Shown: positions 20,257-56,333 of the stretch, in pieces
How the letters are laid out: each line of letters begins with the position of its first letter
Position numbering within the stretch: the stretch's first letter is position 1
Notes under the pieces: generated by a model
What the model saw: the letters and a program-made list of their open reading frames with translations, nothing else
Database searches by the model: none
Told to the model about the DNA's origin: nothing
NCBI GenBank assembly: GCA_049903315.1
Contig: JBNGBT010000004.1
Coordinates: forward strand, 128,001 to 192,000
Length of the DNA: 64,000 bases
Origin: Candidatus Cloacimonadota bacterium
GTDB lineage: Bacteria > Cloacimonadota > Cloacimonadia > JGIOTU-2
Direction of reading: 5' to 3'
Program-made: the position numbers and the translations under genes

Positions 20257-20413
20257 ATCGTTCTTAACTCAGCGCTTCGCTTTTAAGTCAAGTCCGACAA
20301 TGCTTGAACATGGCTTAAGACTTGAGTTAAGGGCACGAAGTGAACTTGACTTTGTTAGTTCTTAACTCAATTCCTCAGCAAGCTGAGTTATTAAGTCAAG
20401 TCCCAAGTCCGAT
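20257..20413 (+). repeat. Composite hairpin repeat, copy 1 (left border of the signalling island)
   Basis: TCGTTCTTAACTCA..GCTTCGC..TTAAGTCAAGTCCGAC / ACTTGAGTTAAGGGCACGAAGTGAACTTGACTT / TTCTTAACTCAATTCCTCAGCAAGCTGAGTTATTAAGTCAAGTCC. Confidence 0.92.
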
Positions 20414-20742
20414 GGAAGGATATTTTTCTTATCAAGTTTATAATGGATGAAAAATGTAAAATTAATATTTTAGTTATGATTCTGGGTAGCCGCAGTTTTT
20501 ATTTGTATTACGTTAAATTATGGGTAGGAATATTTAAGGAATGTGAAATACTTGACACATAAAAATTATAAGGCATTAAAAAATTTGAACTGAAAGCAAA
20601 AATTTTGGAACATCAAAATTCGGAACTTGATAAAATATCAAGAAGCAGCTGTCGTAAAAGAATAAAACTTGGGAAGAATAGGTAGGTGCCCAAACGAAAA
20701 GTTGTTTCATAGGAATCGAGCTTTATTGATAAGAGGTTTTAG

Positions 20743-23700
20743 ATGAAAAATAAAAATATAACAACTGAGAAGCATAGAAAAGAAACAGATAGATTGAAGT
20801 CTAAGATTTCAGAACCGAAGAATCAAAAAACCAGACCGGATCAGAAAGATCTTAATAAAAATCGAATCCATTTTGAAAACTTAGCCAAGGCTGAGCAAAA
20901 GATGAATTTATTTAACTCAATCAATTTTGAGAGAGTAAATGTGTTATTGGAGGCCTTCAATAAAGCAACCGGTTTTGTTACAGCAATACTCGATCTGGAA
21001 GGGAATATTCTGTCAAGATCAGGATGGAGGAGGATTTGTACTGAATTTCATCGTATTAACCCAGAAACATCTGAGAAATGTAAGATCAGCGACACTATTC
21101 TTGCAGGTGAGTTAGCTAAAGGGGAAAAATACCATTGCTATAAATGTTTGAACGGACTTGTCGATGTGGCTGTTCCTATTAAAATTAACGGCGAACATAT
21201 AGGAAATTTGTTTACCGGACAATTTCTTTTTGAAAAACCAGATAGAGAATTTTTCCGCAAGCAGGCTGCAGAAAATGAATTTGAGGAGAGTTCATACCTT
21301 GAAGCTCTTGATGAAGTACCCATTGTATCTGAAGATCAGGTGAAAGCTGTTATGTATTTTCTACTTAATATGACTGAATTGATTAGTGAGATGACCCAGC
21401 AGAAAGTTGAGCAAATCAGTTTAAATGATGCTCTTAAGGAAAGTGAGAACCGATTCAAGCTTGCTTTTGAAAATATCCCTGATGTGGTGGTCATATATGA
21501 CAAAGACTTACGGATCAGATACATAAATGAAGAGACGAGAAAACTAACAGATAAACCAACCTCATATTTCATCGGGAAGCGTGATGATGAAATATGGCCC
21601 AAAGAGGTTTATGAGTCCTATTTACCTACACTTAAGGATGCCTTCAGTACTAAAAAAACATGTTCGATTAAGACCAAATTGATGCTGTCAAGCGGAGTAA
21701 GTAGAGATCTCCAAATTACATGCGTGCCAATTATTGACGATGATGGTGATGTGCGGGAAGTAATGGGCATTACACACGACTTTACAGAGCGTAAACAAGC
21801 AGAGAAGGAGCTGCATGCCCTCGCGTACCGGCAGGGTGCTATTTTGGATGCAGTCCCGGACCTTATTATGGAAGTGGACAATAACAAAGTTTACACGTGG
21901 GCGAACAAAGCAGGTTTGAAGTTCTTTGGTGAGGATGTGATTGGTAAAAATGCAGATTTCTACTTCGAGGGTGAGCAAGATACTTACAGACAAGTCCAAC
22001 CGCTTTTCGAGGGTGTTGAAGATTTATTCTACGTAGAGAGCTGGCAGCGCCGCAACGATGGAGAAAAACGACTACTCGCATGGTATTGCAGGGTACTAAA
22101 AGACAACGCCGGAAAGGTCATCGGCGCACTTTCGTCTGCACAGGATATCACCGAGCTCAAACACACAGAAGAAGAGATCAAAACAATCTGGGATGTTTCA
22201 CCGGATTTACTTTGTGTTGCAGATTATAATACTGCGACATTTCTAAAAATAAATCCATCGTTTAAAAAGACTCTTGGATATTCCGAAGAGGAATTACTCG
22301 GAAAACCTTTCCTTGAATTCGTTCATCCGGACGATCTGCAATCCACGATTAATGTAATTGAAGAAGAGCTGAAGGAAAATATGACGGTCATCAACTTTAT
22401 CAATCGCTATCTTTGTAAAGATGGTTCTTATAAATATCTGAACTGGGTTTCTAAGCCCATCAAAGCAAAGGGGCAAACGTATGCTATTGCACGTGATGTT
22501 TCGGAACAGATAGAAGCTGAAAAAGCACTGGCTGAACAGAATATTTTTCTAAGAAATATTACAGAAACAAGCCCGATTGGTATTGTGCGCACTGATGCAC
22601 AAGGACAACTCACTTATGCCAATCAGGAAGCTGAATCAATACTTGGATTAGAAAGAAGCGAAATTATAAACAGAAGTTATAATGATCCGAAGTGGGAAAT
22701 TACGGATTTTGATGGTAAGGAATTCCCATCAGAAAACCTTCCTTTTTCTCTTGTAAAAAGTAAAATGAAACCGGTAAAAGATGTTCGACATGCGATCAGA
22801 TTCCCTGATGGCAAAACTACTTTACTTTCAATCAATGCTTCTCCGGAACTGGATGAAAATGGTAAATTCAATGGCATGGTTGCCACTATCAGTGACATTA
22901 CTGAATATAAATTGGCCGATGAAACGATACAAAAAAGCGAAAAACTTCTCAATGCTACAGGAAGAATGGCAAAAGTAGGGGGTTGGGAACTCAATGCAAA
23001 AACGAATAAAGTAACTTGGTCTGAGGAAACCTATAGGATCCACGAGATAGATTTAGACCAGGAACCACCCTTGGATGATGCGATTAATTTCTTCCATCCC
23101 GAAGATCGACCCATACTACAGGAAGCCATTAAAAATGCTTTCGAAAAAGCGGAACCGTATGATCTTGTACTTCGTTTTATTACTGCCACAGGTAAAAACC
23201 TGATTACTCACTCAGTGTGTCAACCTGTTTTAGAAGATGGCAAGGTTGTTAAACTTTTTGGTACTTTCCAGGACATCACAAAGCTCAAGCAAATAGAAGA
23301 ATCTTTAAAGGAAAGTGAAGAACGGTTCAATCTGGCAATGAAAGCTTCTAAAGATGGGATTTTCGATTGGAACTTGGCAACTAACGAAATTTATTATTCC
23401 CCCGGCTGGAAGAGTATTCTTGGTTATGAATATGATGAAATCCCTAATGATTTCTCGATTTGGGAAACCAACACCGATCCAGAAGACGTAAAACTCTCCT
23501 GGCAGATGCAGCAGGAACTTATAAATAAACAGCGTGATCGTTTTGAGATGGAATTCAAAATGAAACATAAAGACGGTCATTGGGTGGATATTCTCTCTAG
23601 AGCAGAAGCTATTTTTGATAAATCTGGAAAAGCAGTCCGAATTGTCGGTACACATGTAGATATTACAGAACGTAAACAAGCGGAGTTGGCATTGAGCCGG

Positions 23701-25182
23701 GCAGCAAAAGAGTGGCAGAGCACTTTTGACGCTGCACAGGATGGTATATGGATACTTGATCTGGAACATCATATTTTGCAGTCAAATAGAGAAGCAGAAA
23801 AGATATTTAATAAATCCCGCAAAGATCTCATGAAACGGTTTTGTTATCAGAGTGTTCACGGGACAGATGAACCGATTCCGGAATGTCCTTTCACACGTAT
23901 GAAAAAAACCCTGAAACGTGAATCCATGGAATTGGAAATAGATGGACTCTGGCTCGAGATCACTGTTGACCCGATCTTGGATGAAAGTGGAATGTTAACT
24001 GGTGCTGTCCACATAGTAAGAGATATCACCGAGGGTAAAAAAGCACAAGAGACGCTGGATTATGAACGCAGATTTTCAAAAAATTTAATCAATACAGCAC
24101 AAGCGATTATTTTATTGTTGGATACAGAAGGTAAGATCGTCAGCTTTAATCCGTATATGGAAAATCTCACAGGCTACAAATTGGATGAGGTGAAGGGAAA
24201 AGACTGGTTCACCACTTTCCTTCCGGAATGTGATTATGATAAAATTAGAAAACTGTTTAAAACTGCATTAAACGAGACATCTACAAAAGGTAATATAAAT
24301 CCAATAATGACAAAAGAAGGAAAAAAACTATCGATTGAATGGTATGATAAAGTTCTCAAGAACAGAGATGGTAACATTACTAATATAGTGTCTGTGGGAT
24401 ATGATATTACCGATCGATTAAAGAATGATGAGGAATTGGAACAATACCGTAAACGTCTTGAGGAATTAGTCGATATGCGTACCGCTGAACTGCAGGCAGC
24501 AAATAAAGAACTGGAAGCATTTGCCTATTCAGTATCCCATGACCTGCGCGCTCCCCTGCGTGCGATAAACGGATTCACAAGTATTCTTATGGAAGACTAC
24601 GCACAAAAACTGGATGAAGAGGGGAAAAGAATAGGAGCTCTTATTCAGAACAATTCACGGCAGATGGGGCAGCTTATTGACGATCTACTGGCGTTTTCCC
24701 GATTGGGAAGGGCATCCATGCAAGCATCCACGATTGATATGAAAAATATGGTGAAAGCAATTTATCACGAGGCAGCTAGTCCCGCAGAACGCAAGAGAAT
24801 ACGTTTTTCCATAGGTCCCTTGCCCCCGATTAAGGGTGATCCGACTATGTTTCGGCAGGTGTGGATGAATCTCATTTCCAATGCGCTTAAGTTCACTTCC
24901 AAACGTAAAATAGCGACTATCGATGTTTCATGCAAGAGAGAGAAGAATAGATATATATTCTCAATTAAAGATAATGGCGCAGGATTCAATATGAAATATA
25001 AAGATAAACTCTTCGGTGTGTTTCAGCGCTTGCATACAGAAAGAGAATTTTCTGGTACAGGAGTGGGGCTGGCTCTGGTGCAGCGTATTATTCTCCGTCA
25101 TAAAGGGCTGTTATGGGCAGAAGGAGAAGAGGATAAAGGTGCTGTATTTTATTTTTCCTTGCCAAAAAAATCATTATCATAA
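20743..25182 (+). CDS. PocR + about 8 PAS/PAC histidine kinase
   Basis: PocR (CLNGLVDVAVPI..GNLFTGQF), repeated DITERK-type PAC ends, H-box FAYSVSHDLRAPL, FQRLH...GTGVGL. Confidence 0.93.
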   Translation: MKNKNITTEKHRKETDRLKSKISEPKNQKTRPDQKDLNKNRIHFENLAKAEQKMNLFNSINFERVNVLLEAFNKATGFVTAILDLEGNILSRSGWRRICTEFHRINPETSEKCKISDTILAGELAKGEKYHCYKCLNGLVDVAVPIKINGEHIGNLFTGQFLFEKPDREFFRKQAAENEFEESSYLEALDEVPIVSEDQVKAVMYFLLNMTELISEMTQQKVEQISLNDALKESENRFKLAFENIPDVVVIYDKDLRIRYINEETRKLTDKPTSYFIGKRDDEIWPKEVYESYLPTLKDAFSTKKTCSIKTKLMLSSGVSRDLQITCVPIIDDDGDVREVMGITHDFTERKQAEKELHALAYRQGAILDAVPDLIMEVDNNKVYTWANKAGLKFFGEDVIGKNADFYFEGEQDTYRQVQPLFEGVEDLFYVESWQRRNDGEKRLLAWYCRVLKDNAGKVIGALSSAQDITELKHTEEEIKTIWDVSPDLLCVADYNTATFLKINPSFKKTLGYSEEELLGKPFLEFVHPDDLQSTINVIEEELKENMTVINFINRYLCKDGSYKYLNWVSKPIKAKGQTYAIARDVSEQIEAEKALAEQNIFLRNITETSPIGIVRTDAQGQLTYANQEAESILGLERSEIINRSYNDPKWEITDFDGKEFPSENLPFSLVKSKMKPVKDVRHAIRFPDGKTTLLSINASPELDENGKFNGMVATISDITEYKLADETIQKSEKLLNATGRMAKVGGWELNAKTNKVTWSEETYRIHEIDLDQEPPLDDAINFFHPEDRPILQEAIKNAFEKAEPYDLVLRFITATGKNLITHSVCQPVLEDGKVVKLFGTFQDITKLKQIEESLKESEERFNLAMKASKDGIFDWNLATNEIYYSPGWKSILGYEYDEIPNDFSIWETNTDPEDVKLSWQMQQELINKQRDRFEMEFKMKHKDGHWVDILSRAEAIFDKSGKAVRIVGTHVDITERKQAELALSRAAKEWQSTFDAAQDGIWILDLEHHILQSNREAEKIFNKSRKDLMKRFCYQSVHGTDEPIPECPFTRMKKTLKRESMELEIDGLWLEITVDPILDESGMLTGAVHIVRDITEGKKAQETLDYERRFSKNLINTAQAIILLLDTEGKIVSFNPYMENLTGYKLDEVKGKDWFTTFLPECDYDKIRKLFKTALNETSTKGNINPIMTKEGKKLSIEWYDKVLKNRDGNITNIVSVGYDITDRLKNDEELEQYRKRLEELVDMRTAELQAANKELEAFAYSVSHDLRAPLRAINGFTSILMEDYAQKLDEEGKRIGALIQNNSRQMGQLIDDLLAFSRLGRASMQASTIDMKNMVKAIYHEAASPAERKRIRFSIGPLPPIKGDPTMFRQVWMNLISNALKFTSKRKIATIDVSCKREKNRYIFSIKDNGAGFNMKYKDKLFGVFQRLHTEREFSGTGVGLALVQRIILRHKGLLWAEGEEDKGAVFYFSLPKKSLS

Positions 25183-25215
25183 ATATTTTAGATAACATAA
25201 GATTGGTGGTATAAA

Positions 25216-25653
25216 ATGAAACATGAAGAATATGAAATCCTGATCGTTGAAGATAATCCACAGGACGCCGAGCTCATGGTTCGTTCGCTGAAAAAGAAAC
25301 ATCTGGCAAACAACTTGATTGTAGTGGAAGATGGAGAAGAAGCATTGGATTTTATTTTGTGCCGAGGTGATTATAACGGGAGAGACATAAAAAGACCTCC
25401 CAAAGTGATCTTTCTCGATCTCAAGCTTCCAAAAGTAAACGGATTGGAAGTGTTAAAAGAAATCAAATCTCATCAGCTTACGAAGAAAATTCCTGTTGTA
25501 ATAGTTACTTCTTCCAGAGAAGATCCGGATGTACAGGCAGCTTATGATCTGGGTGCAAACAGCTATGTGGTGAAGCCTGTGAGTTTTGAGAATTTTGCAG
25601 AAACCATGAGCCAACTGGGATTGTACTGGCTGGTCGTGAACGAAAAACCATGA
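25216..25653 (+). CDS. Single-domain response regulator (Rcp1-like)
   Basis: ILIVEDNP, FLDLKLP, TSS, GANSYVVKPV, GLYW. Confidence 0.95.
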   Translation: MKHEEYEILIVEDNPQDAELMVRSLKKKHLANNLIVVEDGEEALDFILCRGDYNGRDIKRPPKVIFLDLKLPKVNGLEVLKEIKSHQLTKKIPVVIVTSSREDPDVQAAYDLGANSYVVKPVSFENFAETMSQLGLYWLVVNEKP

Positions 25654-26054
25654 TAGTCTGCCACAGAGACACAAAGGACACAGAGATAAATATAAATAAA
25701 ATAACTGAAAAAATAATTGGCTGTGGTATAGAAGTTCATAGAGAGTTAGGTCCCGGATTATTAGAATCAATTTATGAATCAGCATTATCTATTGAATTTA
25801 GAAACTGTGGTTTAAAATATGAACGGCAAAAAGTGCTTCCTGTAGAATATAAAGGAGCTAAAATAGGTGAATTTAGAATCGATTTATTAGTTGAGAATTC
25901 TGTAGTTGTTGAATTGAAGAGTGTAGAACGATTCGATCCAGTTTTTGAAGCACAAATTTTGACTTACATGAAATTAGGTAAATATAAAATAGGTTTATTA
26001 ATGAATTTCAATTCAAAATTATTAAAAGATGGTATTAAAAGATACATTTTTTAA
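25650..26054 (+). CDS. GxxExxY family protein (PD-(D/E)XK-like)
   Basis: LGPGLLESIYE, RIDLLVE..VVVELKS, AQILTY, GLLMNF; visibly more AT-rich than its neighbours. Confidence 0.92.
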   Translation: MIVCHRDTKDTEININKITEKIIGCGIEVHRELGPGLLESIYESALSIEFRNCGLKYERQKVLPVEYKGAKIGEFRIDLLVENSVVVELKSVERFDPVFEAQILTYMKLGKYKIGLLMNFNSKLLKDGIKRYIF

Positions 26055-26087
26055 AACTGTCTTTGTGCTCACTGTGGCTCTGTGGCA
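25659..26087. mobile_element. Putative GxxExxY mini-element bounded by 28-bp imperfect inverted repeats
   Basis: TGCCACAGAGACACAAAGGACACAGAGA (25659-25686) versus TCTTTGTGCTCACTGTGGCTCTGTGGCA (26060-26087). Mobility is inferred, not shown. Confidence 0.55.
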
Positions 26088-26115
26088 TGTTGAGTTACAT
26101 ACTAAGTTTATACGA

Positions 26116-26246
26116 TATGAACGGCCAAAAGTGCTTTCTGTTGAATATAAAGGAGCTAAGATGGTATTAAAAGATACATTTTTAAAACTGTCTTTGTGCT
26201 CTCTGTGGCTCTGTGGCATGTTGAGTTACATAATAAGTTTATACGA
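26116..26246 (+). pseudogene. Internally deleted tandem duplicate of the GxxExxY 3' part and right repeat
   Basis: 26116-26159 copies about 25817-25861 and is fused to a copy of about 26028-26115; a few substitutions are present. Confidence 0.85.
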
Positions 26247-26257
26247 AAGGTTGTTTT

Positions 26258-28408
26258 ATGACAACAAAATTACATGTATTGATTGTTGAGGACCTGCCTT
26301 CTGATGCTGAACTTGCGAAGTATGAAATTAATAAAGTCTTAGAAAACTATCTTACTCAGGTTGTCGAGACTGAAGATGATTTCAGAAAAGCGCTTGAGTC
26401 GTTTAAACCCGATCTCATTATCTCGGATTATAAACTCCCTTCTTTTGACGGTTTATCTGCCTTAAAGATCGCTCAGGAAAAATCACCATTCACTCCTTTT
26501 GTTATCCTCACCGGATCGATGAATGAGGACACAGCAGTCAAATGTATGAAAGCCGGCGCAGACGACTATGTAATAAAGGAGCATATCAAAAGATTGGGTC
26601 CTGCAATTCTCAACGCGATGAAAAAGAAACAAATTGAGTTCGAGCGTGCGCAACAGGAAAAAGAATATAGGCAATTGATAGATGGCATGAATGATACTGC
26701 TTTCGTGATAAACTTTGAAGGTAAATTCGTTGAGGTGAATGAGACTGCTGTCCGTGTTTTGGGTTATTCTAGAGATGAACTGCTTACTATGGGACCTACT
26801 GATATCGATCCTCACTTAACTGCAGAAGATATTGGGAAAATGATCAGAGAAATTGAATCGGGATCAGCAAAAAAACAGGTGTTTGAAACAGAGCACAGAA
26901 CCAAAACAGGTAAAATCATACCTGTGGAGATCAGCTCGAGCCCAATAACATATAAAAGGGAATTCGTGATTTTAAGCATTGCCAGAGATATTACTGAACG
27001 AAAAAGAATAGAGGAGAAACTTAAGGATTCGGAAATTAAATATCGCGGTCTATTCGAAAACTCAAGCGAGTTCCTTTTTACACTTGATCTTAAAGGTAAT
27101 TTCACAGATGTTAACAAAGCAGCAGAAAATCTCACCGGCTACACAAAAGCCGAGTTGTTAAAGATGAATTTCAAAAATTATACAAAAAAAGAGGATTATA
27201 GAAGACTTTTTATTGCTTTCAATAATATTTATAAAACAGGAAAACCCCTGCATAATCTTTTTATTGAAGCAAATATGAAGGACAAATCAAAAAGATATTT
27301 TCAGATAAGTCTCAATCTTTTGCGGAAAGGTAAAGAGATTATCGGCTACCAGGGCAGCTCAATGGATATTACAGAACGCAAACTGGCTGAAGAAACCCTG
27401 AAAAGGAGCGAAGAATTTAACCGGGCTATTATAGAGAATAGCAAGGATTGTATTAAGCTCCTTGATCTCGATGGAAACTTGCTTTATATGAGCCCGGGTG
27501 GGCAGGAACTCCTCGAAATCGATGATATAGGAAAATATTTGAACAAATCGTGGATCGAGTTCTGGAAGGGAGAAGATTACGAGAATGCAAAATGTTCTAT
27601 CAACCAAGGGAAAGAAGGTGGAACCGGATATTTTGAAGGATATTGTTCTACAGAAAAAGGAACTCCAAAATGGTGGAGTGTGATAATATCACCTATTTTA
27701 GATGAACATGGGAAGGTTGATAAAATTCTGTCAATCTCGAGGGATATTACCGAACGAAAGCAAGCCGAAGAACAGATCAAGAAAGAACTGCTGGAAAATA
27801 AGGTATTGTTGAGGGAAGTTCACCATAGAACAAAAAATAATCTGCAAACGATCAACAGTTTGTTGCAGCTCCAACAGGATACGATAAAGACAAAAGAAGA
27901 TGCCTTCAAAAGTTTTGAGGTCAGCCAGGACAGGATACGAACAATGGCGCAAGCGTATGAAATTCTGCTTGCATCGGAATACATGTCTGAAGTGAAACTT
28001 GGCGAGTATCTTACCTTGCTTGCAGGACAGCTCAAACGTAATTATGATGCATATAATAAAGTAAAGATTACCTTTTCTTTAGAGGAAGTGCACTTTGAGA
28101 CGGAAAAGTTGAGTAAACTTGGTCTCATTGTAAATGAAATTCTGACAAATGCGATGAAATATGCCTTTCAAGGAAAAGATAAGGGCAATATACATATTGA
28201 GTTAAACGATATGAAGGATCATTTAGTGATCAAGATTTCAGATGATGGAATAGGTATTCCTGAAAACATTGATGTTCATAAACCAGAAACACTTGGGTTG
28301 TCACTTGTTGGTATGCTGCTCGAGGAGTTCAACGGATCATTTTCTGTGGAGAGGAAAAAAGGAACGAGTTTTACACTGGAAATACCGAAGGAGAGAATAA
28401 ATCAATAA
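26258..28408 (+). CDS. REC-PAS(x3)-HisKA_2-HATPase hybrid kinase
   Basis: VLIVED...ISDYKLP; three PAS/PAC; EVHHRTKNNLQ; NAMKYAF; DDGIGIP; TLGL. Confidence 0.93.
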   Translation: MTTKLHVLIVEDLPSDAELAKYEINKVLENYLTQVVETEDDFRKALESFKPDLIISDYKLPSFDGLSALKIAQEKSPFTPFVILTGSMNEDTAVKCMKAGADDYVIKEHIKRLGPAILNAMKKKQIEFERAQQEKEYRQLIDGMNDTAFVINFEGKFVEVNETAVRVLGYSRDELLTMGPTDIDPHLTAEDIGKMIREIESGSAKKQVFETEHRTKTGKIIPVEISSSPITYKREFVILSIARDITERKRIEEKLKDSEIKYRGLFENSSEFLFTLDLKGNFTDVNKAAENLTGYTKAELLKMNFKNYTKKEDYRRLFIAFNNIYKTGKPLHNLFIEANMKDKSKRYFQISLNLLRKGKEIIGYQGSSMDITERKLAEETLKRSEEFNRAIIENSKDCIKLLDLDGNLLYMSPGGQELLEIDDIGKYLNKSWIEFWKGEDYENAKCSINQGKEGGTGYFEGYCSTEKGTPKWWSVIISPILDEHGKVDKILSISRDITERKQAEEQIKKELLENKVLLREVHHRTKNNLQTINSLLQLQQDTIKTKEDAFKSFEVSQDRIRTMAQAYEILLASEYMSEVKLGEYLTLLAGQLKRNYDAYNKVKITFSLEEVHFETEKLSKLGLIVNEILTNAMKYAFQGKDKGNIHIELNDMKDHLVIKISDDGIGIPENIDVHKPETLGLSLVGMLLEEFNGSFSVERKKGTSFTLEIPKERINQ

Positions 28409-28419
28409 ATGCCGTTCTT

Positions 28420-28574
28420 GTCGTTCTTAACTCAATGCTTCGCTTTTAAGTCAAGTCCGACAAGACTCAAGACTTGAGTTAAGGGCACGCAGTGAACTTG
28501 ACTTAAGGATTGTGGGTGAAGTATCGTTCTTAACTCAATTCCTCAGCAAGCTGAGTTATTAAGTCAAGTCCGAT
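28420..28574 (+). repeat. Composite hairpin repeat, copy 2
   Basis: Units A, B and C complete; starts 12 nt after the kinase stop at 28408. Confidence 0.95.
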
Positions 28575-28767
28575 AGAATTTTTCATACTGCCTAATAAAT
28601 TAAGCAAACTGCGGAATTAATTCAGCACTTTGGGGAAAATACTATTTTGCACAATTATTTTTCAGCTAGATTTAATAATTAATTAAATCACGTAACTTAC
28701 TGCCAAAAAGCACATTGCAAAATTGCAATCTCCAATTCAAGAATAATATCCCGGTTAATGACAACAC

Positions 28768-28783
28768 TGGCACGGAAATTGCT
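28768..28783 (+). promoter_or_regulatory. Sigma-54 (-24/-12) promoter candidate
   Basis: TGGCACGGAAATTGCT matches TGGCAC-N5-TTGCW with GG-N10-GC spacing; palindrome ATTGCAAAATTGCAAT upstream at 28714-28729. Confidence 0.7.
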
Positions 28784-28999
28784 ATTAATAATGTAAAGTA
28801 TAAAAGGTGTTTAAAGAATCACGTTGTCACGTGTAAAAAAAGCGGGTATTGCCATGATTGATAAAAAGTATAATAGAAAAAACAAAACAAATAAAAAAGG
28901 GATAAATTCTCTGTCAAAAATCAGTTTATCTGAGTTTAGTAATTGCACACAAACTGTAAATGACTCTGCATTTTTTTCCAAATTTAAAAAGGCGGATAT

Positions 29000-30007: not shown

Positions 30008-30011
30008 TATA

Positions 30012-48147: not shown

Positions 48148-48187
48148 GGAAAGCAGCAGACTGTAAACTGAATATGGAGTTAAAAAA

Positions 48188-49042
48188 GTGAAGAACAAAG
48201 ACATCGATAACCTGGAATTAACTCTTTTACTTGACGCCATGTATAAAAGATACGGATATGATTTTCGGGATTATTCAAGGGCTTCTGTAGAACGAAGAGC
48301 CAGACATTTCATAGCAAAAGAAGGTTACAAATCAATTTCCGAGATGATCCCGCTCCTGTTACATGATGAAACCTTTTTTCAAACTCTGGTTCGTGAATTT
48401 TCCATCACAGTAACCGAGATATTTCGCGATCCCCACGTGTATAAAGTGATCAAGGAAAAGGTTTTCCCGGTTCTGGAAACCTATCCCTTTATCAAGATAT
48501 GGCATGCTGGCTGCGCTACTGGTGAGGAAGTTTATTCGCTTGCTATACTTATGAAAGAGAATGGCTTATACGATAGGGCAACCATCTTTGCTACAGATTT
48601 TAATGACGAAGCATTAGAGAAAGCAAGGCAGGGGATTTACCATGTGGACAATATCAAGCAATGTACTCAAAATTACCAGAAAGGCGGAGGTTCCGAATCA
48701 TTCTCCCAATATTACCATGCTAAGTATGATTCAATAGCAATTGATAACTCGCTAAAAAAGAAAATAACATTTGCAAATCACAACCTGGTCACTGACCACT
48801 CATTTGGCGAGATGAACCTGATCCTTTGTAGAAATGTGTTGATATATTTTAACAAGGGGTTGCAGAATAGGGCTTTACAGCTCTTTGATGACAGTCTCAT
48901 GCCTGGCGGATTTCTCTGCCTTGGTAACAAGGAAAGCCTTCTTTTCTGGGACGAGAGAAAAAGATATGAAACCATATCAGACAGTGCAAAAATTTTCAGA
49001 AAAAAATATGTGCACACCCACAATAAAACCATAGGGCAATAG
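48188..49042 (+). CDS. cheR: CheR-type protein-glutamate O-methyltransferase
   Basis: YGYDFRDY, IWHAGCATGEEVYS, CRNVLIYF. Confidence 0.93.
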   Translation: MKNKDIDNLELTLLLDAMYKRYGYDFRDYSRASVERRARHFIAKEGYKSISEMIPLLLHDETFFQTLVREFSITVTEIFRDPHVYKVIKEKVFPVLETYPFIKIWHAGCATGEEVYSLAILMKENGLYDRATIFATDFNDEALEKARQGIYHVDNIKQCTQNYQKGGGSESFSQYYHAKYDSIAIDNSLKKKITFANHNLVTDHSFGEMNLILCRNVLIYFNKGLQNRALQLFDDSLMPGGFLCLGNKESLLFWDERKRYETISDSAKIFRKKYVHTHNKTIGQ

Positions 49043-49043
49043 C

Positions 49044-49625
49044 ATGAATAAAAAAGCATATAAAGCAATTGTAATAGGTGTTTCCGCCGGTGGTTTGAGA
49101 GCTATAATAGAATTATTTAAAAATCTGCCATCTGATTATCCCTTTCCCATTATCGTTACTCAACACCTTTATCCTACGGAAGATAGCTGCCTGGCGGAGC
49201 TTTTAAACAGGATAACAGCGCTCCATGTGAAGGAAGCGAGCGATAAAGAAGATGTCAAGGCAGGAAATATATACCTGGCGCCACCCAATTACCATTTGCT
49301 GGTTGAACGCAACGAAACATTTTCTCTATCGAATGATGAAAAGGTAAATCATTCCAGACCTTCAATCGATGTGATGTTTGAAAGCGCTGCATATGTCTGG
49401 GGTGATCTTCTTATCGGGATTATTCTGACCGGAGCAAATAGCGACGGTGCGAAAGGCATAAAAATCATTAAAGAATTTGGCGGATTAACAATAGCTCAAG
49501 ATCCGGAAAAAGCTGAACATCCTGCAATGCCATTATTTGCAATAAATACAGGTGCTATTGATAAGATATTAAATCTTAACGAGATCAACGCTTTCCTGAT
49601 CAACCTTGTAATGGATATATCATGA
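49044..49625 (+). CDS. cheB: CheB methylesterase, catalytic domain only
   Basis: GVSAGG (Ser), TQH (His), LTGANSDG (Asp), RPSIDV; no REC domain. Confidence 0.93.
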   Translation: MNKKAYKAIVIGVSAGGLRAIIELFKNLPSDYPFPIIVTQHLYPTEDSCLAELLNRITALHVKEASDKEDVKAGNIYLAPPNYHLLVERNETFSLSNDEKVNHSRPSIDVMFESAAYVWGDLLIGIILTGANSDGAKGIKIIKEFGGLTIAQDPEKAEHPAMPLFAINTGAIDKILNLNEINAFLINLVMDIS

Positions 49626-49650
49626 GAAAGCACCATTATGGAGGAATTGC

Positions 49651-51189
49651 ATGAATAAAAAACAAAAAATTCTGATTGTAGATGACAAAAAAGAAAACTT
49701 AATCGTTTTGGAAAAAGTGTTACAAGCACTCGATGTTGATATCGTTAAGGCAGAGAGCGGTAATGATGCACTCAAAGCAACACTCAACCACGATTTTGCA
49801 CTGGCAATTCTGGATGTGCAAATGCCGGAAATGGACGGGTATGAACTTGCAGAGTATTTACGGAATGAAGAAAAAACAAAACATCTCCCAATGATCTTTC
49901 TTTCTGCGGTTTATTCTGATGATTATCATGTGTTTAGGGGGTATGAAGCTGGTGCAGTTGATTTTGTGACCAAACCATACAATCCATACTACCTTGTCAG
50001 CAAGGTGAATATCTTCCTGCAGTTGGACAAACAAAAGCATGAACTCCTTGAAAAAATCGAGCTTGAGAAATCGAAAAACTATCTTGAAAGTATTTTAATG
50101 TCTGTTAATGACTCTATAATAGTATTGTCATTAGACGGGGTGATGAAAACCGTAAATAAAGCTGCGTTATCACTTTGGGGCTATAAAAACAAAGAGATGA
50201 TAGGTTCAAAGATACGAAAATTATTTGAAACTGATATTTATACTACGTGGCTCAATTCAATAAAAGATTATAATGTATCGCTGGGTAAATCAAACTTTTC
50301 CTTTAAAAAAGTAGAAGCGAACATTATCACGAAAGATAACAATAAAATACCTGCTCTTATCTCCGGTTCAGCTCTTTTAAATCGCAATGGGGATGTTCAG
50401 GGAGCAGTTCTTGTTGCAGTTGATATTTCTGAAAGAAAGATCGCTGAGATGAAAATCAAGCAAATGAATGAAGAACTGGAAGAACGGGTAAAGGAAAGAA
50501 CCCTACAACTTGAGATTTCAAATAAAGACCTGGAAGCGTTCTCATATTCGGTTTCCCATGATCTCAGAACACCCCTGCGAGCAATTTCCGGTTTTGCAAA
50601 TGCTTTGTATAAAAAATATTTTGATGTATGTGATGATGAGGGAAAAAGATTGATCAATGTCATTATCGATAGTGCAAGCAAAATGGGTTGCTTGATAGAT
50701 GACATACTCGCATTCTCTAGATTGGGCAGAAAAGAAGTTGTGAAGAATTTGATTGATCTGAATCCTCTATTTACAGAAGCATTTGACGAATTAACAAATC
50801 TTATAACTGACAGACAAATTGAATTCAAGCTTTCAAAACTTCCCTCGGTGAACGCAGATGCCTCATTAATCAAGCATGTAATAACCAATCTTCTCGCTAA
50901 TGCTGTCAAATTCACACAAACAAAGGAACATGCAGTCATTGAAGTCGGGTGCCAGAAGACTGAAGATAAAATTGTCTATTATGTGAAAGATAATGGCGTA
51001 GGATTTAATATGGAATATGCTGATAAGTTATATAATGTCTTTCAGCGCTTGCATACAGACAGAGAGTTCGAAGGTACTGGTGTAGGTTTGGCGATTGCGT
51101 ATAAAATTCTGCAAAGACATGGCGGAATTATTTGGGCAGAAGCCGAAGTAAATAATGGGGCAACGTTTTATTTTTCATTACCTCAATAA
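49651..51189 (+). CDS. REC-PAS-HisKA-HATPase hybrid kinase
   Basis: ILDVQMPEMDG; FSYSVSHDLRTPL; FQRLH...GTGVGL. Confidence 0.93.
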   Translation: MNKKQKILIVDDKKENLIVLEKVLQALDVDIVKAESGNDALKATLNHDFALAILDVQMPEMDGYELAEYLRNEEKTKHLPMIFLSAVYSDDYHVFRGYEAGAVDFVTKPYNPYYLVSKVNIFLQLDKQKHELLEKIELEKSKNYLESILMSVNDSIIVLSLDGVMKTVNKAALSLWGYKNKEMIGSKIRKLFETDIYTTWLNSIKDYNVSLGKSNFSFKKVEANIITKDNNKIPALISGSALLNRNGDVQGAVLVAVDISERKIAEMKIKQMNEELEERVKERTLQLEISNKDLEAFSYSVSHDLRTPLRAISGFANALYKKYFDVCDDEGKRLINVIIDSASKMGCLIDDILAFSRLGRKEVVKNLIDLNPLFTEAFDELTNLITDRQIEFKLSKLPSVNADASLIKHVITNLLANAVKFTQTKEHAVIEVGCQKTEDKIVYYVKDNGVGFNMEYADKLYNVFQRLHTDREFEGTGVGLAIAYKILQRHGGIIWAEAEVNNGATFYFSLPQ

Positions 51190-51201
51190 AGGAGTAAAAA
51201 C

Positions 51202-51642
51202 ATGAAAGAAGAGTGGTATGAAATTTTGCTGGTTGAAGACGATCCTAATGATGCTGAAATGACAATAAATGTTTTAACAGAAAATCATCTTGCCAATAAG
51301 ATACATTGGGCTGAAGATGGTGAACAGGCAATTGACTATATTTTTGGATTAGGAAAACATACAGGGCGAAATATTGAACATAAGCCCAAATTGATACTTC
51401 TTGACCTTAAGCTGCCCAAAATTGATGGTTTGGAGATTCTGAAAAGGATCAAATCGGACGGGATAATGAAAACGATACCGGTCGTGATACTCACGTCATC
51501 AAGAGAAGATAATGATATCTTGAAAAGTTATAGTCTCGGAGTAAACAGCTACATCGTGAAGCCGGTTGATTTTGACCAGTTTTCTAAAGTAGTGAACGGA
51601 TTGGGTTTGTATTGGCTGTTATTAAACCAGCCCCCGGAGTAA
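51202..51642 (+). CDS. Single-domain response regulator (Rcp1-like)
   Basis: Close paralogue of 25216-25653: LLDLKLP, GVNSYIVKPV, GLYW. Confidence 0.95.
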   Translation: MKEEWYEILLVEDDPNDAEMTINVLTENHLANKIHWAEDGEQAIDYIFGLGKHTGRNIEHKPKLILLDLKLPKIDGLEILKRIKSDGIMKTIPVVILTSSREDNDILKSYSLGVNSYIVKPVDFDQFSKVVNGLGLYWLLLNQPPE

Positions 51643-51695
51643 ACAATGAAAACAAATATAAACACAGCATCATCACAAGAAAGAAAGGAAGAGTT

Positions 51696-54600
51696 ATGAA
51701 ACGTAAGATCAAATTCTTAATCCTCGAAGATGTGCTCACCGACCTCGAATTAGTTCTTATGGAACTAGAAAAAGCACAATTAGAATTCACTTATCTTCAT
51801 GTAGAAACCGAAAAGGATTTTATAAAAGGATTACATGAATTTAAACCTGATCTTATTCTCTCGGATTATAGATTGCCCCAGTTCAATGGCATGCAAGCAC
51901 TCAAACTGAATAAAGAAATTTCACCTTTAATACCCTTTATTATCATAACTGGTTCGATCAACGAAGATACTGCAGTTGAATGCATGAAAGCAGGTGCAAC
52001 AGATTATGTCATAAAACAAAATCTCATTCGGCTTAATTCTGCTATTGAACAGGCTCTGGATAAGAAAGTGCTGCTCGAAGAAAAGACCAAAGCAGAAGAA
52101 GCATTGCGTGAAAAAAGCTATATTCTGAATGAACGTGTTAAAGAACTCAATTGTCTGTATAAAATTTCTCAACTTGTCGAAACACCCGGGATCTCGGATA
52201 AACATTTCTTTCAAGGTGTTGTCGATCTCATACCTCCCGCCTTTCAACATAGCAATATTACCGTTTGCAAGTTGATAATAAATGATAAGGAATTTTTAAC
52301 AAAGAATTTTACACAAACCGATTGGGCACTCCACCAAGATATAGTTATCAATAATGTAAAAGCTGGTGTGATTGACGTTTATCATATAAAAGCGATACCT
52401 GAAACAAAGGATCAGCAATTCTTGGATGAAGAGAAGAGTCTCCTTAATGCAGTCGCTGAACATCTCGGACGTGTTGCCGAACATAAAACAGCAGAAGATA
52501 GTATTTTTCATTTGAACAAAGTTTTGAGAGCAATTCGAGATGTAAATCAGCTTATTGTAAAAGAAAAGAACATGAGTGCCCTTATTAAAAAGTCATGTGA
52601 TATTCTCACCAAAACAAGGGGCTATGATCGTGCCTGCATAGTATTGTTTGATGAACATGATCAACCATACAAATCTTCCCTGGCAAAGAATACCCCAGAA
52701 TATGTTCTATTCGAAAAAGCAGTAAAAAAAGGAACCTGGGATGGGATGTGCAGAAAAGTTATGGATCAGGAAGGAATTGTAATACTTGATAATCCGGAAG
52801 AACAGTGCAAAGGTTGTCCGCTACAATCACTTGTCCCGAAATCTAAAGCCATGTCGATCAGGTTGGAATATGAAGGAAAGATATTCGGCTTTATTAGTGG
52901 CTGGATTCCGGAAAGAATACCGTTAAATGCTGATGAACAGGATTTATTCATCGAAGTTGCCGGTGATATAGGTTTCGCTCTTTATACTGCTGAACTCGAA
53001 AAGAAACGGAAAGAAGCCATCGATTCACTTGCTGCCAGTGAAGAAATGTTCCGATTGCTCGCAGCGAACTCGATCGACTGTATCTGGAAAATCAATAAAA
53101 AATTACAATTCACCTATCTCAGTCCTGCTTTGGAACGAATGACTGGATTTAAACCGGAAGAATGGGTTGGAACACATTTAAGCACTCATTTTACTAAGAA
53201 AGAATTTCTCAAAGTAAGCGCTCTGGCAGTTAATGCATTAAAGAATTATAAAAATTTTTCACATATTACTTTTGAGACCAAAATGCTCAATAAGAATAAA
53301 GAAGAAATAGACTTTGAAATAACCAGTAAACTAATCAAAGATAAAAAAGGAAAAATAATCGGACTACAGGGTACTACACGTGATATTTCAGACAGAAAAA
53401 AAAATGAACAAACTATCAAGCAAAACCGTGAGATGCTTGTACGAACGGAAGCAATCGCACATATTGGTAGCTGGGAATGGGAAATAGCCACCGATACGGT
53501 CATCTGGTCTGATGAGTTATTCCGAATTTTCGGTATAGAAATTGCAAAAACCGCTCCCAGCTGGAAAGAGCATTCTGCTCTCTATTATCCTGAGGATATG
53601 AAGAAATTGACCGCTGCTGTGGAAAAAGCTGTGACCAAAGGGAGTACCTACGAGATGGAACTCAAAGCTATCCGGAAAGACGGTGAGACCAGGATCTGCC
53701 TTGCACGCGGAATCGCAAGGAAAGGAAAAGGTGGGAAAATAACTCACCTCTTCGGGTCACTGCAGGATATTACAGAAAGCAAGGAGGCAGAAGAAAAAAT
53801 CACCAAAGCAAATCGGATATACTCAGTGATCAGTCAAATCAATCAAACGATTGTACACGAAAAAGATAAAAATTTACTCTTTAGAGAAGCCTGCCGCATT
53901 GCTGTCGAGTTTGGAAAATTTCAATTAGCCTGGATCGGCATAGTCGATGAATCTACAAAACTGGTGGTTCCTGTTCAATATGCGGGGAATGGGGCCGGAT
54001 ATTTCTCCACAATTCCCCAGATATCCGTCGAAGATATACCTGAAGGCAGAGGTCCTACCGGTACAGCCATTCGAGAAGGAAAACATGTTGCCTGCAATGA
54101 TATACCCAATGATCCCCGCATGACTCCATGGCGTGAAGAAGCTCTCAAGCGAGATTATCGTTCTGCCATTGCTCTTCCCATAAAACTCTACGATAAAGTG
54201 ATCGGCGCTTTTAATATATACTCTAACAATCCGCATTTCTTTGATGAAACTGAAATAGCTCTTCTGGATGAAATAACTCAGGATATATCATTTGCTATTT
54301 CTGCTATCGAGACGGAAAATAAACGTATTAAAGCTGAAGAAGCCCTGATCAAAAATGAAAAAAAATACAGAGATATTTATGAAAACATCCAGGATGTGTA
54401 TTATGAAACCGATCTTAAGGGAAATATACTGGAAGTGAGTCCCTCTATTAAAGCACTTTCCAGAGGACAATATACCAGAGAGGAAGTAATCGGCAAGAAT
54501 ATGAATGATTTCTATTCGAAACCTGAAGAAAGAACGGAGTTGATCCAGGAGTTATTAAAACATAAACGGGTATCGGATTATGAAATCACTCTGAAAAATA

Positions 54601-56237
54601 AAGATGATTCCCGGATAATATGCTCTCTTGCTTCAATACTTCAGTTTGGCAATGAAGGAAAACCTGAAAAAATCATAGGCTCTATGCATGATATTACAAA
54701 ACGAAAGCATACAGAAAAAGGGCTACACGAGAGTGAAGAACGTCTACTACTAACTTTACAAAGTGCAGATTTGGGATCATGGTACTGGGATATACCAACA
54801 GGTCATGTCGTTTTTAACGAGCGATGGGCAGAGATGCTGGGATACAAACTGAGTGAGATCGAACCCACTTTATCAACATGGGAAAAATTGGTGCATCCTG
54901 ATGATTTGCCGGGTATAATGAAGGGGCTTAATGATCACCTGAAAGGAAATACACCTTCCTACAAAGCAGAATTCAGAATGAAGACAAAGTCAAATGAATG
55001 GAAATGGATACTCGACAGTGGAAAAGTAATAGAAAGAGATAAGCAAGGAAAACCATTGCGAGCAGCAGGAACCCATTTAGATATCACAGAACGTAAGCTG
55101 GCTGAGAAAACGCAGAAAATTTTGTTTAACATATCCAAAGCCCTTAATGTTACTGAAAATTTGCAAATGTTGTATAAAGAGATACATGCATATTTAGGAG
55201 AGGTTCTTGATACTACGAACTTCTACATTGCGCTGTACGATAGAGAAAATGAGTTACTAACATTTGAATATTATGCAGATGAAAAATTTGATAAGGATTA
55301 CCTTCCATCCGGTCGAGCATTTGGTAAAGGTCTAACTGAATATGTTATCTCCACCGGTAACACTATACTCGCTACATTGGAAAAACAGGATGAACTGGCA
55401 CGAGAAGGCAAAATTGAGATTATTGGTCCCCGTTCTAAAGTCTGGCTTAGCGCTCCTCTCAAAGTGGAAAATGAGGTCATCGGAGCCCTTGCTGTACAAA
55501 GTTATGATGATACGGATCATTATAATGAGAAGGATATTCAGATTCTTGATTTTGTATCAAGTGAAGTTGCGATCGCGATAAAGCGTAAGCAGTCAGAGCA
55601 GCAAATACAAAGAGACTTGAAAGAAAAAACACTTTTATTGCAGGAGATCCATCATAGGACAAAGAATAATCTACAGACAATATGTAGTTTAATGCAGATG
55701 CAGGAGGACAATATCCTAACCAAAAAAGATGCGCTCCAGGGTTTTCAAGTAACCCAGGATAGAATAAGGGCAATGGCAAAATCGTATGAGATTTTATTGC
55801 GGTCGGAATATATGTCAGAAATAAAACTCGGTGAATATATTACAGAGCTTGCAGACCAGCTGGGAAGGAATTATGATATCCATAGGAAAATTAAGATCAT
55901 TTACTCTTTGGAAGATGTGCATTTTGACGCAGAGAAATTATCTAAACTCGGGCTGATCCTGAATGAGATAATTACAAATTCGATAAAATATGCTTTCAAA
56001 GGAAGAGATGGGGGGAATATACACATCATTTTAAAGGATGCAAAAAACCATATAACAATTGAAATATCAGATGACGGTATAGGTATTCCGAAAAATATAA
56101 AAATACCGAATCCAAAAACGCTTGGACTATCACTTGTGGATATGCTGATGAGTGAGTTAAATGGGTCCTACTCGGTAGGCAGAAAGAATGGCACGAGTTT
56201 TACACTGGAAATACCGAAAGAGAGAAAAAATCATTGA
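51696..56237 (+). CDS. REC-multi-GAF/PAS-HisKA_2-HATPase hybrid kinase
   Basis: LSDYRLP REC; several GAF and about four PAS domains; EIHHRTKNNLQ; ATG 51696 preceded by AAGGAAG. Confidence 0.92.
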   Translation: MKRKIKFLILEDVLTDLELVLMELEKAQLEFTYLHVETEKDFIKGLHEFKPDLILSDYRLPQFNGMQALKLNKEISPLIPFIIITGSINEDTAVECMKAGATDYVIKQNLIRLNSAIEQALDKKVLLEEKTKAEEALREKSYILNERVKELNCLYKISQLVETPGISDKHFFQGVVDLIPPAFQHSNITVCKLIINDKEFLTKNFTQTDWALHQDIVINNVKAGVIDVYHIKAIPETKDQQFLDEEKSLLNAVAEHLGRVAEHKTAEDSIFHLNKVLRAIRDVNQLIVKEKNMSALIKKSCDILTKTRGYDRACIVLFDEHDQPYKSSLAKNTPEYVLFEKAVKKGTWDGMCRKVMDQEGIVILDNPEEQCKGCPLQSLVPKSKAMSIRLEYEGKIFGFISGWIPERIPLNADEQDLFIEVAGDIGFALYTAELEKKRKEAIDSLAASEEMFRLLAANSIDCIWKINKKLQFTYLSPALERMTGFKPEEWVGTHLSTHFTKKEFLKVSALAVNALKNYKNFSHITFETKMLNKNKEEIDFEITSKLIKDKKGKIIGLQGTTRDISDRKKNEQTIKQNREMLVRTEAIAHIGSWEWEIATDTVIWSDELFRIFGIEIAKTAPSWKEHSALYYPEDMKKLTAAVEKAVTKGSTYEMELKAIRKDGETRICLARGIARKGKGGKITHLFGSLQDITESKEAEEKITKANRIYSVISQINQTIVHEKDKNLLFREACRIAVEFGKFQLAWIGIVDESTKLVVPVQYAGNGAGYFSTIPQISVEDIPEGRGPTGTAIREGKHVACNDIPNDPRMTPWREEALKRDYRSAIALPIKLYDKVIGAFNIYSNNPHFFDETEIALLDEITQDISFAISAIETENKRIKAEEALIKNEKKYRDIYENIQDVYYETDLKGNILEVSPSIKALSRGQYTREEVIGKNMNDFYSKPEERTELIQELLKHKRVSDYEITLKNKDDSRIICSLASILQFGNEGKPEKIIGSMHDITKRKHTEKGLHESEERLLLTLQSADLGSWYWDIPTGHVVFNERWAEMLGYKLSEIEPTLSTWEKLVHPDDLPGIMKGLNDHLKGNTPSYKAEFRMKTKSNEWKWILDSGKVIERDKQGKPLRAAGTHLDITERKLAEKTQKILFNISKALNVTENLQMLYKEIHAYLGEVLDTTNFYIALYDRENELLTFEYYADEKFDKDYLPSGRAFGKGLTEYVISTGNTILATLEKQDELAREGKIEIIGPRSKVWLSAPLKVENEVIGALAVQSYDDTDHYNEKDIQILDFVSSEVAIAIKRKQSEQQIQRDLKEKTLLLQEIHHRTKNNLQTICSLMQMQEDNILTKKDALQGFQVTQDRIRAMAKSYEILLRSEYMSEIKLGEYITELADQLGRNYDIHRKIKIIYSLEDVHFDAEKLSKLGLILNEIITNSIKYAFKGRDGGNIHIILKDAKNHITIEISDDGIGIPKNIKIPNPKTLGLSLVDMLMSELNGSYSVGRKNGTSFTLEIPKERKNH

Positions 56238-56247
56238 ATGTCATTCT

Positions 56248-56333
56248 GTCGTTCTTAACTCAACGCTTCGCTTTTAAGTCAAGTCCGACAAGACTTGAGT
56301 TAAGGGCACGAAGCGAACTTGACTTAAGGATTG
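56248..56333 (+). repeat. Composite hairpin repeat, copy 6 (right border of the signalling island)
   Basis: Units A and B; starts 11 nt after the kinase stop at 56237. Confidence 0.93.

What the first reader, a model, noticed from the sequence alone, without database searches (positions are those of the whole stretch)
20257..56333. A 36-kb sensor-kinase array partitioned and bounded by six co-oriented copies of one composite hairpin repeat: candidate cassette-shuffling system
Seen: copies at 20257, 28420, 37818, 41576, 43603 and 56248, all in the same orientation. The first and last mark the switch between ordinary genes and signalling genes. I saw none in the other ~28 kb. Four start 11-21 nt after a kinase stop codon and a fifth follows a relic kinase tail. 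They divide the island into five plus-strand blocks of about 8, 9, 3.5, 2 and 12.5 kb, and gene stubs cluster at their edges. Established: ORF-then-hairpin arrays are the logic of integron cassettes, and REP/BIME repeats are recombination hotspots, but this repeat matches neither as far as I can tell. Inference: the repeat is a recombination or mobilisation site that builds and rearranges multi-gene signalling cassettes, using an enzyme encoded elsewhere.
Basis: partly seen in the sequence, partly recalled or inferred. Interest (0 to 1): 0.85.

Follow-up and report, generated by a model that had tools for sequence, protein, structure and literature searches.

The report
Transposase-linked hairpin repeats in kinase island
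The six repeats are leftover DNA hairpins of a small transposase element whose gene was deleted here; they were copied around a fast-changing cluster of sensor-kinase genes and mark some of its rearrangement points, but they are not a dedicated cassette-shuffling system.

Summary
The six co-oriented repeats are real (10 arm matches against 0.18 expected). They are REP/REPIN-like paired hairpins of a RAYT-type HUH transposase. In related sequences the same repeat flanks a ~190-aa Y1 transposase on both sides. A metagenome contig of the orthologous island holds the intact element where this window holds 28 kb of kinases. Two window copies still carry the transposase's ribosome-binding site and first two codons, and no cognate enzyme was found in this assembly. 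Block content differs among congeners and some breakpoints lie in the repeat. But 51 of 71 outside sites have no signalling neighbour, co-orientation with the upstream gene is general (55 of 63), and congeners lack the repeat at the island's left border. Best reading: orphaned REPs spread by recombination among paralogous kinase tails, acting as passive hotspots. New aspects: a repeat family not found in my searches, no GTAG foot, direct-repeat flanks on a subclass-2.1-like transposase, and 6 of 8 transposase-bearing sites in signalling clusters. The scan noted similar REP/RAYT stories on other DNA, but not this sequence.

The parts
20256..20422 (+). Repeat cluster 1: arms X, Y, X', then a truncated remnant of the transposase leader (20411-20422)
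   Evidence: no repeat at this border in G004, G008, G009
20743..56237 (+). Variable signalling island between a GNAT gene and the conserved 56418 gene; empty in G009, about 16 kb in G008
25650..26054 (+). GxxExxY gene (TIGR04256, 149 bits against cut-off 35) with its own short repeats; a separate element, not linked to the hairpin repeat
28419..28573 (+). Repeat cluster 2 (X, Y, X') after HisKA_2 kinase 26258-28408; type-A junction
37801..37817 (+). Stub of the first codons of the 68-aa ORF, cut off by the repeat (same breakpoint at 41559-41575)
   Evidence: intact ORF at 43291-43497
37817..38035 (+). Repeat cluster 3 (X, Y, X', transposase remnant, half Y); type-B junction
37984..38006 (+). 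Ribosome-binding site and first two codons (Met-Arg) of the deleted RAYT-like gene, joined to a Y-arm loop
   Evidence: matches the start of the intact gene in L234, L085, L109, L082
38046..38093 (+). Degenerate type-B kinase-tail relic
41575..41640 (+). Repeat cluster 4 (X plus half Y); type-B junction
41646..41693 (+). 48-nt type-B kinase-tail relic (94-96% to 41512-41559 and 43246-43291)
43291..43497 (+). Intact 68-aa ORF with no Pfam match; 93% identical to the G004 orthologue
43537..43590 (+). Type-A (HisKA_2) kinase-tail relic
   Evidence: 43537-43783 is 93% identical to the left end of the intact element in L234
43602..43806 (+). Repeat cluster 5 (X, Y, X', transposase remnant at 43755-43777, half Y); type-A junction
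43805..44012 (+). 208-nt type-B kinase-tail relic; starts at the same base as the relic after the repeat in G004
56247..56334 (+). Repeat cluster 6 (X, Y) after HisKA_2 kinase ending at 56237; type-A junction; right border
   Evidence: folding z -3.5 and -4.4 on the two strands

Best explanation
The repeat is the cognate REP/REPIN-type flank of a RAYT-like HUH (Y1) transposase. The unit is two inverted, strand-specific hairpins (X and Y) with fixed G-T mispairs, placed as direct repeats on both sides of the gene (shown). Such an element once sat in this island after a HisKA_2 kinase (shown by L234). In the window's lineage the gene was deleted from codon 3 to the downstream Y loop, probably at a 3-nt microhomology (remnant shown, mechanism inferred). 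The orphan repeats then multiplied locally as passengers of unequal crossing-over or conversion among paralogous kinase 3' ends (inferred from shared junctions). They also supply the longest near-identical tracts I saw there (46 nt at 98-100% in four copies) and hairpins, so they act as passive recombination hotspots through which blocks are gained, lost or swapped (inferred). Sitting just after stop codons, they may also tune read-through or mRNA stability, as reported for E. coli REPs (untested).
For: Same repeat on both sides of Y1 transposases in L052, L085, L086, L109, L234, L237; Pfam Y1_Tnp over cut-off in 3 of 3 tested; invariant H60, H62, Y120, N124, P125; best fold match 4ER8 TnpA-REP, E 3e-8. 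The clade carrying this repeat or a diverged form has 7 rows (94/87 support), and other clades carry other repeats. Flanks share 18 or more letters in direct orientation in 24 of 34 loci and at most 13 in inverted orientation; stems change on both sides while G-T pairs stay at fixed offsets. Window 43537-43783 is 93% identical to L234 up to the second codon. Six copies reduce to three left junctions. Window 43084-44018 is a circular permutation of a G004 segment with crossovers in kinase tails. 37934-38035 and 43705-43806 are 97% identical under different left flanks. In E. coli 22 of 90 rearrangement junctions fell in REPs (PMC3161906, passages).
Against: Signalling neighbours are enriched: 20 of 71 sites against 107 of 2221 gaps in this genome, and 6 of 8 transposase-bearing sites. 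Two non-sister transposase clades sit after the same type of sensor gene end. Passive hitch-hiking explains this only if the clusters are permissive sites or move between lineages. The stop-plus-repeat region is more alike (83-93%) than the kinase tails (63-81%), so whole-gene co-duplication alone is not enough. Sequence cannot separate RecA-type from transposase-made junctions.
Confidence: 0.68

Rival explanations
1. Transposase-driven cassette shuffling: the HUH enzyme cuts and rejoins single strands at the repeats and so moves, excises or inserts sensor-kinase modules. Its clade has been domesticated in signalling clusters; in this genome the system is now orphaned or served in trans.
For: Sensor-repeat-sensor-repeat-kinase runs in G209:C50, G218:C89, G174:C65; 4 of 4 members of one subclade and 3 of 3 of another lie in signalling context; 4 of 47 sensor ends of one type are followed by the transposase; the 28-kb difference to L234 ends in repeats on both sides.
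Against: Tandem sensor genes of the same type occur without the repeat (G210:C129, G220:C33, G185, G218:C295); 51 of 71 sites are non-signalling; about 50 signalling genes elsewhere in this genome lack it; several breakpoints lie in kinase tails or inside PAS domains; no cognate enzyme found here. The authors of a like claim for prochlorosin genes later found no strong evidence for or against causality (10.1101/2020.03.09.984088, read in full).
Confidence: 0.14
2. Purely passive passenger: the repeat was co-duplicated with kinase 3' ends and has no effect on where recombination happens.
For: Identical junction positions in three type-A and two type-B copies; crossovers in tails explain the 43603 copy; kinase-tail relics occur without the repeat in G004 and G008.
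Against: Flank exchange inside the repeat; repeat-bounded 28-kb difference; the 20257 copy has no kinase tail; orthologues of kinase 38136 in G004 and G008 lack the repeat.
Confidence: 0.12
3. The repeats are kept mainly as 3'-UTR regulators (terminator or stabiliser) that set expression steps along long signalling operons.
For: 55 of 63 sites follow a co-oriented gene, 24 within 60 nt of its end; this role is reported for E. coli REP325 (10.64898/2026.03.23.713779, abstract and outline only).
Against: Positions are not conserved among congeners; the pattern also fits insertion bias. No RNA data were available.
Confidence: 0.05
4. Integron-like array (CALIN) whose repeats are attC sites.
For: ORF-then-hairpin layout; a tyrosine recombinase scoring 228 bits on the integron integrase model lies about 36 kb from the island's right end.
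Against: That score is under the 265-bit cut-off and the match skips model positions 179-237; the repeat flanks an HUH gene, is absent near that integrase, and its fold does not pair an RYYYAAC box with a GTTRRRY box (box consensus recalled); blocks are multi-gene and 2-12.5 kb.
Confidence: 0.01

Closest known systems
REPtrons: REP/BIME/REPIN sequences with TnpA-REP (RAYT), e.g. E. coli TnpA-REP, PDB 4ER8
   Same: HUH/Tyr enzyme with the YxxxNP signature and the same fold; gene flanked by cognate imperfect palindromes in inverted pairs; gene-less copies in intergenic space just after stop codons; each enzyme lineage has its own repeat.
   Different: No GT[AG]G foot (stems follow AAGA or CGGA); longer stems with an inner variable hairpin and two fixed G-T pairs; few copies per genome (eight clusters here, 1-7 matches in relatives) instead of hundreds; 57-63 bits against the 80-bit cut-off of NF047646.
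TnpA-Y1 subclass 2.1 (Bertels group 1) and TIRYT/TIRtrons (PMC6006769, PMC3733652)
   Same: NHFH and YIH[LYNRF]NP motifs and a Trp-x-x-Ser after the catalytic Tyr; patchy distribution across phyla.
   Different: That subclass is reported with no REP-like flanks, or with terminal inverted repeats and a C-terminal HTH. These proteins are about 190 aa with no HTH match and have direct-repeat, paired-hairpin flanks. The assignment rests on motifs only.
TnpA-REP genes beside prochlorosin arrays in picocyanobacteria (10.1101/2020.03.09.984088)
   Same: A subclass-2.1-type enzyme co-located with an expanding, diversifying gene family; diversifying recombination was proposed.
   Different: There no cognate repeat was found and the causal claim was softened in a later note; here the cognate repeat is clear and the cargo is multi-gene signalling blocks.
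Integron cassette arrays (attC/CALIN)
   Same: Co-oriented ORF-then-hairpin look; strand-specific folded site.
   Different: The linked enzyme is an HUH transposase, not IntI; no attC box pairing; most copies lie outside arrays.

Membership tests
REP/RAYT (REPtron) | HUH motif plus catalytic Tyr (YxxxNP), TnpA-REP fold | tested here: met
   H60, H62, Y120, N124, P125 invariant in 24 sequences; profile hits only 4ER8 in the PDB, E 3.8e-5; model pLDDT 94, top Foldseek hit 4ER8, TM 0.64. The gene is in relatives, not in the window.
REP/RAYT (REPtron) | Gene flanked by cognate palindromic repeats specific to the enzyme lineage | tested here: met
   24 of 34 loci share 18 or more letters between the two flanks
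REP/RAYT (REPtron) | Repeats in inverted pairs (REPIN/BIME), dispersed without the gene | tested here: met
   X and Y are inverted units; 63 of 71 outside sites have no transposase gene in the locus
REP/RAYT (REPtron) | 5' GT[AG]G tetranucleotide at the hairpin foot | tested here: not met
   feet read AAGA-C and CGGA-C or CAGA-C; the feature is as given in PMC6006769, where subclass 2.6 and class 3 also lack it
REP/RAYT (REPtron) | High copy number (over 100 per genome) | tested here: not met
   eight clusters in this assembly; 1-7 matches per relative; MAG assembly may lose copies
REP/RAYT (REPtron) | NCBIfam NF047646 cut-off (80 bits) | tested here: not met
   57.4, 62.7 and 63.2 bits
REP/RAYT (REPtron) | Enzyme binds and cleaves the single-stranded repeat | not testable with these tools
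   needs an in vitro assay
TnpA-Y1 subclass 2.1 / TIRYT | NH[YF]H and Y[IV]HLNP-type motifs | tested here: met
   NHFH in 32 of 34 (two have DH); YIHxNP in 33 of 34; motif table in PMC6006769
TnpA-Y1 subclass 2.1 / TIRYT | Terminal inverted repeats instead of REPs | tested here: not met
   longest inverted match between flanks 13 letters in 34 loci
TnpA-Y1 subclass 2.1 / TIRYT | C-terminal helix-turn-helix domain | tested here: not met
   only Y1_Tnp matched in 3 of 3 proteins; length about 190 aa
TnpA-Y1 subclass 2.1 / TIRYT | Placement in the subclass on a tree with reference members | not tested
   the tree held only my own rows; the paper's supplements were not opened
Integron / CALIN | Integron integrase in the genome | tested here: not met
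   best 227.9 bits against 265 on TIGR02249
Integron / CALIN | attC sites with paired R boxes | tested here: inconclusive
   by eye on the folds no R-box duplex (consensus recalled); no attC model or IntegronFinder available; Rfam found only a tRNA in the window
Integron / CALIN | Mostly single-gene cassettes | tested here: not met
   blocks of 2-12.5 kb with 1-6 or more genes

The most novel reading that the evidence does not exclude
A clade of RAYT-like HUH transposases has been domesticated inside signalling clusters of marine Cloacimonadota, where its paired hairpins serve as cut-and-join sites that swap sensor modules in front of kinase outputs: an integron-like diversification system run by a REP transposase. 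This would give RAYTs, whose host benefit is an open question, a concrete job. The window would be a worked-over array that has since lost the enzyme.
Probability: 0.14. Interest if true: 0.85.

Novelty: new variant of a known kind. Interest (0 to 1): 0.44.

Why it matters
It removes the need for an unknown cassette system and names the enzyme. It also shows that transposases with subclass-2.1-type motifs, reported as lacking REP-like flanks, can carry co-evolving paired hairpins with fixed G-T mispairs and no GTAG foot; this gives a ready set of enzyme-substrate pairs for testing how such enzymes recognise DNA. The repeated placement of intact elements in sensor-kinase clusters makes a standing question testable: whether RAYT/REP systems persist because they help diversify host gene families.

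Tried and rejected
Rfam: no family matched the repeat. Four-helix-bundle or GxxExxY flank (my first guess): rejected, since the repeat flanks Y1 transposases and the GxxExxY gene has other repeats. Integron: see rivals. Cognate enzyme in this assembly: no match at E 1e-10; 5 Y1_Tnp matches, none within a repeat cluster; the one whose flanks could be extracted has a different hairpin, and two gave no hit in that script. Population reads: 4 of 16 listed runs laid on 27600-47500; all are contigs that break at the repeats, so junctions inside the repeat cannot be seen. Coverage was even across blocks, and the two joints listed had short sides (20-23 letters) inside genes; no verdict. These runs may be the source of this DNA. 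No RNA holder listed. A metagenome scan for the arm plus start-codon remnant found 0; a second pattern found 13 loci. The single-sequence PDB search found 0; the profile found 4ER8. The strict hairpin filter was noisy: 7 of 47, two of them AT-rich false hits, against 60 of 2245 gene ends in this genome; I rely only on its transposase count. Paper searches: 'Cloacimonadota' with 'repetitive extragenic palindrom' gave 0; TnpAREP/REPtron terms since 2019 gave 2. Earlier scan notes by sequence: 0 for the repeat and 0 for the enzyme.

Full report
Observation. The six clusters are real, on the + strand and at the stated places: 10 matches to the left-arm motif against 0.18 expected. Four follow kinase stops by 10-20 bases and one follows a relic stop by 12. 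The island is an all-plus run of PAS/GAF/PocR kinases, response regulators and CheR/CheB. The window is C44:128001-192000 of a 2.96-Mb, 96%-complete assembly; earlier scan notes call the organism a Cloacimonadota bacterium, and most named records with the repeat belong to that phylum or to Marinimicrobia. A profile scan of the assembly finds the six clusters plus two diverged ones elsewhere, neither beside a signalling gene.

Anatomy. The repeat is made of two arms, X and Y, each an imperfect palindrome with a variable inner hairpin; they are inverted relative to each other. Each folds better on one strand, because G-T pairs there become C-A mismatches on the other (for example -10.2 against -6.5 kcal/mol for the second X arm at 28520, and -4.2 against -0.9 for Y). 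This is the layout of REP doublets.

The enzyme. An exact scan of one genome per species gave 35 loci. Two held a gene of about 190 aa directly against the repeat, with HUH and YxxxNP motifs. It matches Y1_Tnp over cut-off and the RAYT model under cut-off, and its model's best structural match is E. coli TnpA-REP, 4ER8. Relatives occur in 90 of 232 genomes of the phylum, not in this assembly. Of the 30 best loci fetched, the closest (68-79% identical) carry this repeat on both sides, and the stop codon lies inside the downstream Y arm. More distant clades (46-55%) carry their own repeats, whose stems change on both sides while G-T pairs stay at offsets 3 and 7 (L052, L085, L091, L093, L096, L098) or 2 and 8 (L090, L095, L101, L104, L106). 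Flanks are direct repeats: 24 of 34 loci share 18 or more letters directly and none more than 13 inverted; three of the ten misses have a flank cut by a contig end.

The direct link to this window. Metagenome locus L234 is the orthologous island: GxxExxY gene, the orthologue of kinase 26258, repeat, intact transposase, repeat array, then the conserved gene at 56418. Window 43537-43783 is 93% identical to its left end up to the second codon, where the window continues into a Y-arm loop. The same ribosome-binding site and Met-Arg remnant is at 37984-38006, and a shorter remnant at 20411-20422. The window's repeats are therefore the remains of a transposase element whose gene was deleted; the join falls at three shared letters (mechanism inferred).

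How six copies arose. They reduce to three left junctions: type A (28420, 43603, 56248, also in G004 and L234), type B (37818, 41576; both cut the same small ORF at the same base) and 20257. Window 43084-44018 is a circular permutation of a G004 segment, with crossovers in the two kinds of kinase tail and the repeat as passenger. Whole-gene co-duplication is not enough: tails are 63-81% alike, the last codons plus repeat 83-93%, though the arms are conserved even between families, so this does not date the copying. Orthologues of kinase 38136 in G004 and G008 lack the repeat. Two events point to crossovers in the repeat itself: 37934-38035 and 43705-43806 are 97% identical under different left flanks, and the 28 kb that L234 lacks begins and ends at repeat clusters.

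Against a dedicated system. The same site is empty in G009, holds about 16 kb with one repeat at another junction in G008, and has other blocks and one repeat in the assembled parts of G004 (77% complete); none has the repeat at the left border. Kinase-tail stubs occur there without it. Of 71 outside rows (one site counted twice; loci found by protein searches L085-L114 and L179-L227 left out, re-cuts L115-L129 kept), 51 have no signalling neighbour, and 55 of 63 with an upstream gene are co-oriented with it, so six co-oriented copies in an all-plus island are expected. Tandem sensor genes of the same type exist without repeats. No integron integrase passes cut-off.

What remains odd. Signalling neighbours are enriched, 20 of 71 against 107 of 2221 gaps here. 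The sites are not independent, the baseline comes from one genome, several loci were re-cut because they held the transposase, and the second metagenome pattern used a loop variant from this island. Six of 8 transposase-bearing sites are in signalling clusters. Two clades on opposite sides of a 99/99 branch sit after the same type of sensor end. Of 47 such ends, taken from 44 loci (30 fetched of 79 matches in one family, 14 of 14 in the other; three ends dropped at contig edges; the query came from a repeat-followed gene), 4 are followed by the transposase. The same ends also carry unrelated short-repeat scars, so a permissive site is the simplest reading.

Population data gave no verdict: contigs of 4 runs break at the repeats and cover all blocks evenly. 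For the same reason the block order rests on the original assembly.

Literature seen. PMC6006769: parts 2-5 of 10 and passages; it reports no REP-like sequences for subclass 2.1, and its supplements, which I did not open, may hold related cases. PMC5581495, PMC3733652, PMC8266576, PMC3161906 and 10.1101/2021.07.10.451892: passages. 10.1101/2020.03.09.984088: whole text (supplements closed). 10.64898/2026.03.23.713779: abstract and outline. I found no description of this repeat family, within a library that lacks most subscription papers. The attC box consensus and the look of four-helix-bundle flanks are recalled, not from a call.

Verdict. It works like a REP/RAYT system and meets its core features, but not the GTAG foot, the copy number or the model cut-off: a new variant of a known kind. 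The island is reshaped mainly by recombination among paralogues, with the orphan repeats as passengers and probable hotspots (0.68). Active enzyme-driven shuffling is not excluded (0.14). Interest 0.44.

Noticed in passing
window 25650-26246: GxxExxY gene followed by a partial copy of itself (26115-26162 matches 25817-25864; 26158-26246 matches 26026-26115 at 97%), inserted between a response regulator and a kinase; also present in L234.
   Followed up: partly
window 19410-19630: A different palindromic repeat between the methyltransferase and GNAT genes, with about 30 matches in G009 and several in G001, G007, G008: a second dispersed family.
   Followed up: no
window 30012-31694; L123, L162, L163, L184-L227: Sensor proteins without a kinase domain that end in a conserved coiled-coil motif (ELKKEINELL...GK...KY), often in tandem before kinases; they may be plug-in sensor halves. 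Their 3' ends often carry small mobile elements.
   Followed up: partly
window 43291-43497: 68-aa Cys/His-rich ORF with no Pfam match, 93% conserved in G004, that follows type-B kinases; its start is cut by the repeat at two other kinases.
   Followed up: partly
L241:4414-5478 (G000:C44, about 28 kb beyond the window's end): 354-aa tyrosine recombinase, 228 bits on the integron integrase model (cut-off 265) and over cut-off on NF040815, followed by several small co-oriented ORFs; not checked for attC sites.
   Followed up: partly
L116:2287-2865 on the reverse strand (G004) and L119:100-762 (G007); window about 10692-10713: In two congeners a transposase of another clade, with its own hairpins, sits just before the pcm gene, between surE and pcm in G004; the window has no insert there.
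   Followed up: no
L120:5733-6413 and window 20226-20256: The island occupies the place of a DNA-alkylation repair gene that is intact in G009, cut to a stub in G004 and G008 and missing in the window.
   Followed up: partly
L234:1380-1718: The middle of the 26258 orthologue matches a PAS segment of kinase 51612 (74%): domain shuffling inside kinases, away from any repeat.
   Followed up: no
L200 and L243:110: Hybrid units that join the Y arm of this repeat to the X arm of another transposase clade's repeat, suggesting exchange between repeat lineages.
   Followed up: no
window 958-1031: A tRNA gene (Rfam, 67 bits), 19 kb from the island; no link seen.
   Followed up: no
window 7926-9695: A TPR sensor kinase on the minus strand outside the island, related to the type-B kinases, with no repeat after it.
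   Followed up: no
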